A stretch of 64,000 nt of DNA from an uncultured Candidatus Marinamargulisbacteria bacterium (GCA_964517775.1 CAZFCP010000008.1:23369-87368), one strand, 5' to 3'; counted from the stretch's first letter, positions 9,516 through 41,706 are shown. Numbers and translations are program-made. Notes: generated from the sequence alone by a model not told the origin.

Positions 9516-9555
9516 CATAGCTACATAGCTACATAGCTACATAGCTACATAGCTA
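9516..9555. repeat. Tandem repeat (CATAGCTA)x5
   Basis: Five exact 8-nt units read directly; they abut the left end of the element at 9553-9786. Confidence 0.95.
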
Positions 9556-9786
9556 CAGACTACCCCGTCAGCTGCGCTGCCACCCCTTCTGGGAAGGGGA
9601 ATTTTTGTTGATTCTATATCTGTTATCACTCTAGTGTCACCCCAGCGGAGGCTGGGGTCCAGGCTGTTTTTATTCAAACTGGATTCCAGCCACTGCTGGA
9701 ATGAGACAGCATCATAAATGCAATCACAGTTGTTAAAATCCCCTTCTCAGAAGGGGTGGCAGCGCAGCTGACGGGGTAGTCTGTAG
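9553..9786. mobile_element. Nested palindromic MITE/REPIN-like element, copy 1
   Basis: 52-nt outer inverted arms 9553-9604 and 9735-9786 (2 mismatches) enclose inner 27-nt inverted hairpin repeats 9636-9662 and 9679-9705. Homologous to 27175-27425 in the opposite orientation. Confidence 0.85.
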
Positions 9787-9797
9787 TTGTGAGGTTG

Positions 9798-41024: not shown

Positions 41025-41035
41025 GGATACGACTT

Positions 41036-41409
41036 GTCATTCCAGCGTAGGCTGGAATCTAGTTCAAAACTTAGAGTCTAGAAAATCGATTGATAAATCT
41101 TTCCACTCTGGATTTTGATTTTCAATTAAATTTATTTTCCAAGCTCTTTTCCATGTTTTAATTTGTTTTTCCCTTGTTATAGCTGCTTGAATATTATGTC
41201 CGTACTCATAGTAAACGAGTGTTTTAATCCCATATTTTTTAGTGAAGCCCTCGATTAATCCTTGCTGGTGTTCATAAATTCTACGAGTTAGGTCAGATGT
41301 TACTCCTGTGTATAAGGTGCCGTTTTTTGAGCTTGCCAAGATATATACCCAGTATGTTTTTTCCATTTAGAGCGAAATTATACTGGATTCCAGCCTGCGC
41401 TGGAATGAC
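41036..41409. mobile_element. GIY-YIG nuclease cassette bounded by inverted hairpin repeats
   Basis: GTCATTCCAGCGTAGGCTGGAATCTAG (41036-41062) and the inverse GTCATTCCAGCGCAGGCTGGAATCCAG (41383-41409), 25/27 identical, tightly enclose the gene. Confidence 0.85.
41064..41366 (-). CDS. GIY-YIG nuclease (YhbQ/UPF0213-like)
   Basis: YWVYIL...TLYTGVT.DL.RRI.EH, AITREKQIK.W.R.WK..LIE..NP.W.DL. Confidence 0.95.
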   Translation of the reverse strand: MEKTYWVYILASSKNGTLYTGVTSDLTRRIYEHQQGLIEGFTKKYGIKTLVYYEYGHNIQAAITREKQIKTWKRAWKINLIENQNPEWKDLSIDFLDSKF

Positions 41410-41495
41410 AAACAAAAGGCTGGAATGGCAAACGAGAGTGGTATGGTAAGTAAAAGGTTTGCATGGCAAATAAAAGGCTAGAATGAGAAACGATA
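41400..41495. repeat. Decaying 18-20 nt tandem tail derived from the repeat end (CTGGAATGAC...)
   Basis: Units CTGGAATGACAAACAAAAGG / CTGGAATGGCAAACGAGA / GTGGTATGGTAAGTAAAAGG / TTTGCATGGCAAATAAAAGG / CTAGAATGAGAAACGATA. Confidence 0.7.
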
Positions 41496-41565
41496 CATGG
41501 AGAAGCTTAATTCTGAGTATGATTTATAGATATTCCCGATCGAGAATATTTTTTGAAAAACACCT

Positions 41566-41638
41566 AAAAACACCATGAAAAAATACAACAGCACTATAAG
41601 ATTTTCATGGTGTTTTTCTAAAATTCCACCATGAAAAT
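41566..41638. repeat. Three copies of CACCATGAAAA (two form a 16-bp inverted repeat)
   Basis: AAAAACACCATGAAAA 41566-41581, TTTTCATGGTGTTTTT 41602-41617, CACCATGAAAA about 41627-41637. Confidence 0.7.
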
Positions 41639-41650
41639 TGTATAATCAAA

Positions 41651-41706
41651 AAAATCCCCTTCCCAGAAGGGGTGGCAGCGCAGCTGACGGGGTAGTCTGT
41701 AGCTAT
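41651..41706. repeat. Solo outer arm of the nested element
   Basis: AAAATCCCCTTCCCAGAAGGGGTGGCAGCGCAGCTGACGGGGTAGTCTGTAGCTAT, near-identical to 9735-9786; overlaps the fdhD-like stop codon. Confidence 0.9.

What the first reader, a model, noticed from the sequence alone, without database searches (positions are those of the whole stretch)
41036..41409. Minimal GIY-YIG cassette as the candidate autonomous partner of the hairpin repeats
Seen: a 374-bp unit of one 100-aa GIY-YIG gene between 27-nt inverted hairpin repeats, with the left repeat 1 nt from the stop codon. The left repeat plus following AGTTCAAA matches 27267-27299, and gene-less versions sit in both nested elements. Established: similar CGTC/TGTC-tagged ATTCC-N-GGAAT palindromes are widespread, and their mobiliser is not firmly established to my knowledge. 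Inference: GIY-YIG plays the role RAYT plays for GTAG REPs.
Basis: partly seen in the sequence, partly recalled or inferred. Interest (0 to 1): 0.65.

Follow-up and report, generated by a model that had tools for sequence, protein, structure and literature searches.

The report
Known Ssn nuclease-hairpin cassette
This small nuclease gene sitting between two inverted DNA hairpins is a typical member of the Ssn family described in 2025, whose enzymes cut single-stranded DNA beside exactly such hairpins, so it is a real but already explained feature.

Summary
A 100-aa GIY-YIG gene (41064-41366, minus strand) lies between two 28-nt hairpin repeats in inverted orientation (41035-41062 and 41383-41410), 1 nt from its stop codon and 16 nt from its start codon.

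It is not a new partnership. Chenal et al. 2025 (Nat Commun, PMC11893778) described the Ssn family. These are single-domain GIY-YIG nucleases that bind such hairpins (NTS/SRM, CGTCATTCCCGCGMAVGCGGGAATCYRG) only as single-stranded DNA and cut just upstream. Their genes are typically flanked by the hairpins.

Both window hairpins fit the published SRM search pattern. The catalytic residues have the published spacing. In 80 homologous loci from many phyla I found the same geometry.

Here the gene is single-copy and absent from the closest relatives, so it was probably acquired horizontally. Cassettes in other genomes are duplicated as discrete units.

Three points weaken the mobiliser reading:
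- Most other hairpin copies in this genome ride inside a second repeat element that is paired with a DUF559 nuclease gene.
- Two related genomes have many hairpins and no detectable gene.
- GIY-YIG chemistry cannot rejoin DNA.

Verdict: a new member of a known kind.

The parts
41035..41062 (+). SRM/NTS-type hairpin at the 3' side of the gene (TGTCATTCCAGCGTAGGCTGGAATCTAG). The TGTC tag points outward and the unit ends 1 nt from the stop codon.
   Evidence: It matches the published SRM degenerate pattern. It forms an 8-bp stem as ssDNA. It is one arm of inverted repeat I1.
41064..41366 (-). ssn-type gene: a 100-aa single-domain GIY-YIG nuclease. Y8, Y19, R29, H33, E66 and N85 are conserved.
   Evidence: Pfam PF01541 E=3.5e-15. 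Invariant and near-invariant residues appear in a 22-sequence alignment. More than 7,900 homologs have E<=1e-5, the best at 60-74% identity. It is the only copy in the 2.15-Mb genome. Its GC is 33% against 43% for the window.
41383..41410 (-). SRM/NTS-type hairpin at the 5' side of the gene (TGTCATTCCAGCGCAGGCTGGAATCCAG on the minus strand). It ends 16 nt before the ATG, and TATAAT follows it directly.
   Evidence: The geometry equals the median of 80 homologous loci.
41399..41496 (-). Tandem array of 4-5 decaying 18-20-nt units. Each unit is the outward flank plus the 5' arm of the hairpin (CTTTTGTTTGTCATTCCAGC on the minus strand), and the array lies upstream of the right SRM in its own orientation.
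   Evidence: Direct-repeat family D1. The same directional feature is found at 10 of 107 hairpins in other phyla and at none on the other side, and in relatives G003 and G007.
9635..9706 (.). Gene-less SRM doublet: a CCCCAGC-stem unit at 9635-9662 (+) and a TTCCAGC-stem unit at 9679-9706 (-). It lies inside the outer arms 9549-9606 and 9735-9791.
27266..27338 (.). Decayed gene-less SRM doublet (27266-27293 + and 27311-27338 -) inside the outer arms 27164-27237 and 27363-27436.
41649..41706 (+). Solo copy of the outer arm (AAAAAATCCCCTTCCCAGAAGGGGTGGCAGCGCAGCTGACGGGGTAG...). This is a different repeat family and is context, not part of the cassette.
   Evidence: It is absent at the same spot in relative L133, where the FdhD stop abuts the terminator hairpin.

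Best explanation
The locus is an SRM-ssn-SRM cassette, a member of the Ssn family of single-domain GIY-YIG nucleases.

Inferred by homology with the four enzymes tested by Chenal et al.: the 100-aa protein recognises the hairpin TGTCATTCCAGC-N4-GCTGGAATCYAG only when the DNA is single-stranded, and only on the strand that reads TGTC...CYAG. It then hydrolyses that strand a few nucleotides 5' of the TGTC tag. In N. meningitidis the cut lies about 4 nt upstream.

Shown: the two flanking hairpins point their TGTC tags outward, so the predicted nicks bracket the gene.

Inferred: the cassette was acquired horizontally by this probable Margulisiibacteriota genome and is, or was, a selfish unit that propagates as a block.

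Shown: in this genome the roughly 13 other hairpins of the family are not scattered singly. Most lie as gene-less head-to-head doublets inside a ~220-bp composite element whose own 48-nt arms belong to a second repeat family, paired with a DUF559 nuclease gene.

Inferred: their copy number is therefore largely due to that carrier and not to Ssn. What the nicking does for the cell is untested. Candidates are trimming of incoming or exposed ssDNA as in Neisseria, or promoting spread of the cassette through host repair.
For: - Published family definition and biochemistry.
- Both flanking hairpins match the published pattern HGTCWYN(0-2)YYVSBRHN(0-5)WNVSBRGN(0-2)RNCYNB.
- Y8, Y19 and E66 have exactly the spacing of the mutated catalytic residues Y6, Y17 and E64 of Nm SsnA.
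- In 80 homologous loci from many phyla, SRM density is 1.71/kb within 200 nt of the gene against 0.072/kb further away. The nearest upstream SRM is in + orientation in 37/40 loci and the nearest downstream in - orientation in 32/41. The median gap to the ATG is 16 nt, against 16 nt here. 33/82 genes are flanked on both sides, close to the paper's 42%.
- The hairpin shows compensatory changes: 98.9% of cells paired, 4 of 8 pairs changed on both sides, 51 such cells against 9.8 in shuffles.
- Patchy distribution: the gene is absent from three same-family genomes and from a closer relative that keeps FdhD...ORF165-IleRS synteny.
- Discrete duplicated cassettes occur in Desulfacyla, SpSt-1139, a Bdellovibrionales MAG, Sphingomonas and G007.
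- Composite carrier and DUF559 gene.
Against: - I could not compare directly with the characterised N. meningitidis protein or assign CDD cd10448, because neither sequence nor model is available in these tools.
- There is no expression evidence. The RNA runs gave nothing on the gene.
- No biochemical test exists for this protein, and its stem variant (A-T instead of C-G at one pair) is untested.
- The hairpin count here is low (15 at <=1 mismatch) compared with the hundreds in the genomes studied by the paper.
Confidence: 0.82

Rival explanations
1. One reading: the GIY-YIG protein is the mobiliser of the hairpins, the functional analogue of RAYT for REP/REPIN. It would excise or copy hairpin doublets and its own cassette via ssDNA intermediates, so the solo hairpins are its non-autonomous offspring.
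For: - The architecture is IS-like, with outward-facing recognition sites.
- Discrete multi-copy cassettes occur in single genomes. In SpSt-1139 homology begins 2 nt outside TGTC, close to where Ssn enzymes cut.
- Gene-less SRM(+)-~20 nt-SRM(-) doublets recur in G000 contig C61, G003 and G021, resembling REPINs.
- The hairpin type that flanks the gene (TTCCAGC stem) is the commonest type in this genome.
- The paper raises the same idea.
Against: - From established knowledge, GIY-YIG enzymes hydrolyse DNA without a covalent enzyme-DNA intermediate, so they cannot rejoin strands as HUH Y1 enzymes do. Host factors would be required.
- Most solo hairpins here sit inside a carrier element that has its own arms.
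- In Desulfacyla the duplicated unit extends 61 nt beyond each hairpin to separate 23-nt terminal inverted repeats.
- G003 (29 hairpins) and G021 (17) have no detectable gene.
- Identical proteins P0026 and P0007 occupy a single locus in 10-12 contigs from different samples.
- No empty-site joint appears in the reads.
Confidence: 0.25
2. A domesticated ssDNA restriction or recombination modulator, as shown for N. meningitidis. Ssn trims incoming transforming ssDNA, or other exposed ssDNA, at hairpin sites and so shapes which DNA recombines. The cassette form is only an evolutionary relic.
For: - This is the only in vivo function demonstrated for the family.
- The genome encodes ComEC and DprA homologs.
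- The gene sits at a stable position across samples in other species.
Against: - Only about 15 sites lie in 2.15 Mb, too few to affect most incoming DNA.
- ComEC and DprA occur in most control genomes, so they are weak evidence.
- The gene is missing from close relatives.
- Competence of this uncultured organism is unknown.
Confidence: 0.3
3. Homing-like spread. Ssn nicks a hairpin doublet that lacks the gene, and repair templated on a gene-bearing copy converts the doublet into a cassette. On this view the doublets are targets, not derivatives.
For: - The superfamily contains classic homing endonucleases.
- Doublets have the same outward-facing hairpin geometry as the cassette.
- Near-identical proteins across distant phyla indicate frequent transfer.
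Against: - Ssn enzymes do not cut dsDNA.
- No doublet/cassette allelic pair was found.
- The doublets here pair two different stem types, unlike the cassette.
Confidence: 0.12
4. Coincidence: the hairpins are ordinary terminators or regulatory palindromes, and the GIY-YIG gene is an unrelated housekeeping nuclease of the YhbQ/UPF0213 type.
For: The closest solved structure is a UPF0213 protein, 1ZG2. The 3' hairpin lies where a terminator would be.
Against: - The 1ZG2 match is weak (E=8e-5, 25.6 bits).
- Hairpins are enriched 24-fold around homologs with fixed orientation in many phyla.
- No T-tract follows the hairpins, and the scan called no terminator there.
Confidence: 0.02

Closest known systems
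[quoted passage not shown] 2025, PMC11893778)
   Same: It is a single-domain ~95-100-aa GIY-YIG protein with the same catalytic residue spacing. The hairpin has the same tag, palindrome and tail (H-GTCATTCC-stem-loop-stem-GGAATC-YRG). The gene sits between two inverted hairpins. Homologs are spread over many phyla.
   Different: One stem pair is A-T instead of C-G (TTCCAGC/GCTGGAA). The genome holds about 15 hairpins instead of hundreds. The host is a probable Margulisiibacteriota MAG. Most extra hairpins are nested in a second repeat element. No biochemical or genetic data exist for this member.
RAYT (REP-associated tyrosine transposase) with REP/REPIN/BIME, and IS200/IS605 TnpA
   Same: A small nuclease gene is flanked by the hairpins it recognises. 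Recognition is on single-stranded DNA and is strand-specific. Gene-less hairpin doublets are scattered in the genome.
   Different: The fold and chemistry are unrelated: GIY-YIG hydrolysis against an HUH/Y1 covalent phosphotyrosine intermediate. The hairpin carries no GTAG tag. Mobilisation is not demonstrated. This genome has its own separate Y1_Tnp gene with different flanking repeats.
Neisseria dRS3 repeats and intergenic mosaic elements (NIMEs)
   Same: The ATTCC(C)-N-GGGAAT palindrome core is the same, and inverted pairs bracket short segments.
   Different: dRS3 was defined without the oriented tag and tail. NIMEs are Neisseria-specific arrays, whereas the doublets here sit inside an unrelated carrier repeat.
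GIY-YIG homing endonucleases (I-TevI type)
   Same: They share the GIY-YIG catalytic core (Tyr, Tyr, Arg, His, Glu, Asn) and are selfish, horizontally moving genes.
   Different: This protein has no DNA-binding extension. The NCBIfam group I intron endonuclease model scores 22 bits against a cut-off of 56. Ssn enzymes do not cut dsDNA. The gene is not in an intron or a phage.

Membership tests
Ssn family (cd10448-type GIY-YIG ssDNA nucleases, Chenal et al. 2025) | Single-domain GIY-YIG protein shorter than 150 aa | tested here: met
   The protein has 100 aa. PF01541 covers residues 5-79 and there is no other domain.
Ssn family (cd10448-type GIY-YIG ssDNA nucleases, Chenal et al. 2025) | Catalytic Tyr, Tyr and Glu (Y6, Y17, E64 in Nm SsnA) present | tested here: met
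   Y8, Y19 and E66 have identical spacing (11 and 47 residues). Y19 and E66 are invariant and Y8 is >=90% conserved in 22 homologs, as are R29, H33 and N85.
Ssn family (cd10448-type GIY-YIG ssDNA nucleases, Chenal et al. 2025) | SRM hairpin matching the published degenerate pattern within 500 bp on both sides of the gene | tested here: met
   The regex from the paper's methods hits 41035-41062 (+) and 41383-41410 (-).
Ssn family (cd10448-type GIY-YIG ssDNA nucleases, Chenal et al. 2025) | Homologs elsewhere are likewise flanked by SRMs | tested here: met
   33/82 genes in 80 loci are flanked on both sides. SRMs are enriched 24-fold within 200 nt, with fixed orientation.
Ssn family (cd10448-type GIY-YIG ssDNA nucleases, Chenal et al. 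2025) | blastp E<1e-10 with >=75% coverage to Nm SsnA (CAX49033.1), or top CDD hit cd10448 | not testable with these tools
   Neither the reference sequence nor CDD models could be obtained. No supplement is held, no Neisseria genome is among the controls, and no Ssn structure is in the PDB copy.
Ssn family (cd10448-type GIY-YIG ssDNA nucleases, Chenal et al. 2025) | Strand-specific cleavage of ssDNA a few nucleotides 5' of the hairpin, with no activity on dsDNA or RNA | not testable with these tools
   This needs purified protein and oligonucleotide assays.
RAYT / IS200-IS605 TnpA (HUH Y1 transposases) | Y1_Tnp fold with HUH motif and catalytic tyrosine | tested here: not met
   The protein is GIY-YIG. 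The only PF01797 match in the genome is a different gene, C18:21241-21576.
RAYT / IS200-IS605 TnpA (HUH Y1 transposases) | Flanking REP hairpins with a GTAG-type tag | tested here: not met
   The hairpins carry a TGTC tag and a CYAG tail and have no GTAG.
GIY-YIG homing endonucleases (I-TevI type) | GIY-YIG domain joined to a C-terminal DNA-binding region, reaching the family model threshold | tested here: not met
   The protein has 100 aa and no extension. TIGR01453 scores 22.2 bits against a cut-off of 56.05.
UPF0213 / YhbQ-type GIY-YIG proteins (PDB 1ZG2) | Close sequence similarity to the family representative | tested here: inconclusive
   Only E=8.3e-5 and 25.6 bits to 1ZG2. It is a superfamily relative and not evidently a member.

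The most novel reading that the evidence does not exclude
Ssn cassettes are autonomous selfish elements of a new mechanistic kind. A hydrolytic ssDNA-nicking GIY-YIG enzyme marks both ends, and host replication and repair do the copying. Gene-less hairpin doublets are their non-autonomous derivatives. The directional tandem arrays of 5' half-sites upstream of hairpins (10/107 against 0/107, ~20-nt period, seen here, in G003, in G007 and in several other phyla) are footprints of repeated nick-primed strand-displacement synthesis that stalls at the hairpin.
Probability: 0.25. Interest if true: 0.65.

Novelty: new member of a known kind. Interest (0 to 1): 0.25.

Why it matters
The main point, a minimal GIY-YIG nuclease paired with the hairpins that flank it, was published in 2025. 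This locus therefore adds only one more member, in a probable Margulisiibacteriota genome, with a compensated stem variant.

Three things still matter. First, whether Ssn cassettes move, and how, remains open, and this genome offers a compact test case: one gene, about 15 sites and three stem types. Second, the genome holds three separate pairs of a nuclease gene with its own flanking hairpins (Ssn, DUF559 and a RAYT-like Y1 enzyme). Repeats of two of these families (SRM doublets and the DUF559-type arms) are nested one inside the other, with a short motif resembling the RAYT gene's flank just outside the arms. This suggests a general, layered ecology of ssDNA-hairpin elements. Third, new Ssn and hairpin pairs are of practical interest as site-specific ssDNA cutters.

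Tried and rejected
- **Empty-site evidence from reads.** Contigs of eight public runs were laid on the locus. The ORF165-hairpin-gene junction is present in an independent sample (X2). The joints found (41408-41412 to 41651, and 41059 to 41383) have short sides and carry other letters, or an undetermined stretch, between them. They are best explained as other copies of the repeats, not excision.
- **Multiple insertion sites of one identical protein.** P0026 and P0007 each sit in a single genomic context across 10-12 contigs. An apparent 186-nt difference in L120 was only a gene-calling difference.
- **Nucleotide-level empty site in relatives.** The same-family genomes are too distant (IleRS 62-67% identity). 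G002 and the closer L133 lack the cassette, but the neighbouring gene content also differs.
- **Direct comparison with N. meningitidis SsnA.** This could not be done.
- **Transcription.** The three RNA runs gave no coverage of the gene.
- **Promoter and terminator scan.** Nothing convincing was found for the gene. A TATAAT directly follows the 5' hairpin, but there is no good -35.
- **Local test that the gene predicts the repeats.** In 41 relatives the result was weak. Of the three genomes with close homologs, two have the hairpins, while 11 of 38 without the gene also have them.

Full report
**Observation.** The window is C8:23369-87368 of a 2.15-Mb, 41% GC, 62-contig genome. Its IleRS is closest to proteins named Candidatus Margulisiibacteriota (59-62% identity), so that is the probable host.

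At 41064-41366 on the minus strand lies a 100-aa ORF that matches Pfam GIY-YIG at E=3.5e-15. It is bracketed by inverted arms of 30 nt, 93% complementary. The functional units are 28 nt each:
- 41035-41062 (+): TGTCATTCCAGCGTAGGCTGGAATCTAG
- 41383-41410 (-): TGTCATTCCAGCGCAGGCTGGAATCCAG

Each folds as ssDNA into an 8-bp stem with a 4-nt loop. The left unit is 1 nt from the stop codon and the right unit ends 16 nt before the ATG. The palindrome core occurs 3 times in the window against 0.01 expected. The "match" at 27266-27299 is a decayed copy, 28/34 identical by my count.

**What it is.** A literature search found Chenal et al. 2025 (PMC11893778). The paper defines the NTS of Neisseria (CGTCATTCCCGCGMAVGCGGGAATCYRG) and a degenerate "Ssn-related motif" (SRM).
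- 71% of homologs of a 94-aa GIY-YIG protein (SsnA, cd10448) have an SRM nearby, and 42% have one on both sides.
- Four purified homologs bind the hairpin only as ssDNA, only on one strand, and cut a few nucleotides upstream.
- In N. meningitidis the enzyme lowers transformation by hairpin-bearing DNA.
- The discussion points out that NTS-ssnA-NTS looks like an insertion sequence and compares it with IS200/IS605 and RAYT/REP.

The partnership itself is established, while mobilisation is not.

**Membership tests.**
- Both window hairpins match the paper's SRM pattern.
- Y8, Y19 and E66 have exactly the spacing of the mutated residues Y6, Y17 and E64. They are invariant or nearly so among 22 homologs, as are R29, H33 and N85, which correspond to the canonical GIY-YIG Arg, His and Asn from my knowledge of I-TevI.
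- The family is huge and oddly uniform: more than 7,900 proteins at E<=1e-5, with the best hits 60-74% identical and named from Desulfomonilaceae, Armatimonadota, Margulisbacteria, Trichorickettsia, Caldiserica, Nitrospirae and Parcubacteria.
- In 80 named loci, 33 of 82 genes are flanked by SRMs on both sides. SRM density is 1.71/kb within 200 nt of the gene against 0.072/kb further out. The nearest upstream SRM has the gene's orientation in 37/40 loci and the nearest downstream one the opposite in 32/41. The median hairpin-to-ATG gap is 16 nt. The window cassette is therefore typical in every respect.
- Across 67 distinct 28-nt SRMs the stem is paired in 98.9% of cells. Four of eight pairs show compensatory changes (51 cells against 9.8 in shuffles, 0/500). 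The window's A-T pair is one such variant. One caveat is that the search pattern itself favours complementary classes.
- I could not compare directly with CAX49033.1 or assign cd10448. The only solved relative is the UPF0213 protein 1ZG2, at a weak E=8e-5.

**Distribution and mobility.**
- The gene is single-copy here and has 33% GC against 43% for the window.
- Among 40 relatives it is absent from the three same-family genomes. It is present twice in G007 (72% and 68% identity), with SRMs on both sides of one copy and on one side of the other, and three times in G026.
- The neighbours are conserved. ORF165 sits next to IleRS in G002, G003 and in a closer metagenomic relative (L133, IleRS 77%), which also keeps FdhD nearby. 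None of them has the cassette. G002 has a convergent fumarase 6 nt after ORF165, L133 has a 417-aa gene in that place, and G003 has a hairpin cluster at a different spot, between ORF165 and IleRS.
- In other genomes, cassettes are duplicated as discrete blocks. Desulfacyla has 517 bp at 98.6% in two contigs, but there the block extends 61 nt beyond each hairpin to its own 23-nt terminal inverted repeats. SpSt-1139 has 363 bp at 81%, with homology starting 2 nt outside TGTC. A Bdellovibrionales MAG has 403 bp at 85%, Sphingomonas 548 bp at 80% and G007 367 bp at 86%.
- Identical proteins P0026 and P0007 each occupy one locus across many samples. Read contigs gave no empty-site joint.

Taken together, horizontal acquisition and block-wise duplication are well supported. 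Frequent hopping is not.

**The other hairpins in this genome.** A tight pattern (GTCAYYCCNGCNNNNGCNGGRRTCYAG, <=1 mismatch) finds 15 sites in G000 and none for the reversed control in any of 41 genomes.

Apart from the two cassette hairpins, one solo copy (C5:51263) and a CCCGCG-stem doublet on the small contig C61, they lie inside a ~220-bp composite. The composite reads: outer arm, then a TTCCAGC-stem SRM (+), then TTCAAACAAAAACAGC, then a CCCCAGC-stem SRM (-), then outer arm. There are five full copies and three partial ones.

The 48-nt outer arm (CTACCCCGTCAG...CTGCCACCCCTTCTGGGAAGGGGAATTT) is a separate family with at least 26 copies. A third pair exists as well: a Y1_Tnp (RAYT-like) gene at C18:21209-21815 lies between inverted AAGGTGCCAGGGT-type repeats.

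Hence most hairpin multiplicity here can be credited to the carrier element and not to Ssn. In relatives, G003 has 29 and G021 has 17 hairpins without a detectable gene. Either the gene is unassembled, or it was lost, or hairpins persist and spread without it.

**Mechanism.**
- Shown: the anatomy, the family-wide geometry, the covarying hairpin and the patchy distribution.
- Inferred from published enzymes: strand-specific ssDNA nicking about 4 nt 5' of the tag. I derived this distance from the paper's numbering, where the cut is after nt 20 and the NTS spans nt 25-52, given that G26 and C49 are the key positions. With both tags facing outward, the nicks would fall just outside the cassette on opposite strands.
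- From established knowledge: GIY-YIG nucleases hydrolyse without a covalent intermediate. Any copying must therefore rely on host replication or repair. The RAYT analogy holds for the association but not for the chemistry.

**A directional footprint.** Next to the right hairpin is an array of 4-5 decaying 18-20-nt units, each made of the outward flank plus the 5' arm. The same thing occurs in G003 (21-nt units), in G007 and at 10 of 107 true hairpins in the 80 loci. It is always on the 5' (tag) side and never on the other. The arms are better conserved than the spacers. This may record repeated nick-primed synthesis or provide alternative pairing partners. It is unexplained and, as far as I could read, not described in the paper.

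**Verdict.** This is a new member of a known kind and of low interest as a discovery. It has modest value as a compact test case for the open question of Ssn cassette mobility.

Noticed in passing
window 41399-41496; also L100:1040-1120 and 1290-1340 (G003), L082:1790-1830 (G007), and L025, L034, L060, L062: Tandem arrays of 5' half-sites (outward flank plus left arm, period 18-21 nt) lie upstream of full SRM hairpins. 10 of 107 hairpins in 80 loci have them on the tag side and none on the other side. The arms are conserved better than the spacers.
   Followed up: partly
G000:C8:4029-4471 (outside the window); window 9549-9606, 9735-9791, 27164-27237, 27363-27436, 41649-41706: A second hairpin repeat family (CTACCCCGTCAG..CTGCCACCCCTTCTGGGAAGGGGAATTT, at least 26 copies) flanks a DUF559 nuclease gene as an inverted pair. 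It also forms the outer arms of the ~220-bp composites that carry the SRM doublets.
   Followed up: partly
G000:C18:21100-21875 (outside the window); compare window 27164-27190 and 27410-27436: The single Y1_Tnp (RAYT-like) gene of the genome is flanked by inverted repeats containing AAGGTGCCAGGGT. A related GCCAGGGTAAAA motif sits just outside the outer arms of the composite at 27164-27436. The genome thus holds three nuclease and hairpin pairs; repeats of two of them (SRM and the DUF559-type arms) are nested here, with a short motif resembling the third's flank just outside.
   Followed up: partly
window 41566-41706 versus L133:100-200: The inverted repeat AAAAACACCATGAAAA/TTTTCATGGTGTTTTT is conserved directly after the FdhD stop codon in a relative that lacks the cassette, so it is most likely the FdhD terminator. 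In this genome a solo outer arm is inserted exactly at the FdhD stop codon, between gene and terminator.
   Followed up: partly
L082:1780-1870 (G007); proteins P0002, P0003, P0049: In several close homologs the reading frame runs through the 3' hairpin, giving C-terminal tails ...FLDSRLRGND... encoded by the hairpin itself. In the window gene a stop codon lies 1 nt before the hairpin.
   Followed up: no
G003 (29 sites) and G021 (17 sites): Two related genomes are richer in SRM hairpins than this one, many of them identical in sequence and arranged as SRM(+)-~20 nt-SRM(-) doublets. Neither has a detectable ssn gene (completeness 84% and 94%).
   Followed up: partly
G000:C61:928-1009: A head-to-head SRM doublet with the canonical CCCGCG stems (unlike the TTCCAGC type of the rest of the genome) sits on a 2.5-kb contig. 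It may be a separate acquisition or a mis-binned contig.
   Followed up: no
L018:2866-3384 and L038:2866-3384 (Candidatus Desulfacyla euxinica): The ssn cassette is embedded in a 519-bp unit with its own 23-nt terminal inverted repeats (GGAGCATTACCAGTTTGTTAAAG) and extra hairpins. The unit is present at 98.6% identity in two contigs, another case of a hairpin cassette nested in a larger repeat.
   Followed up: partly
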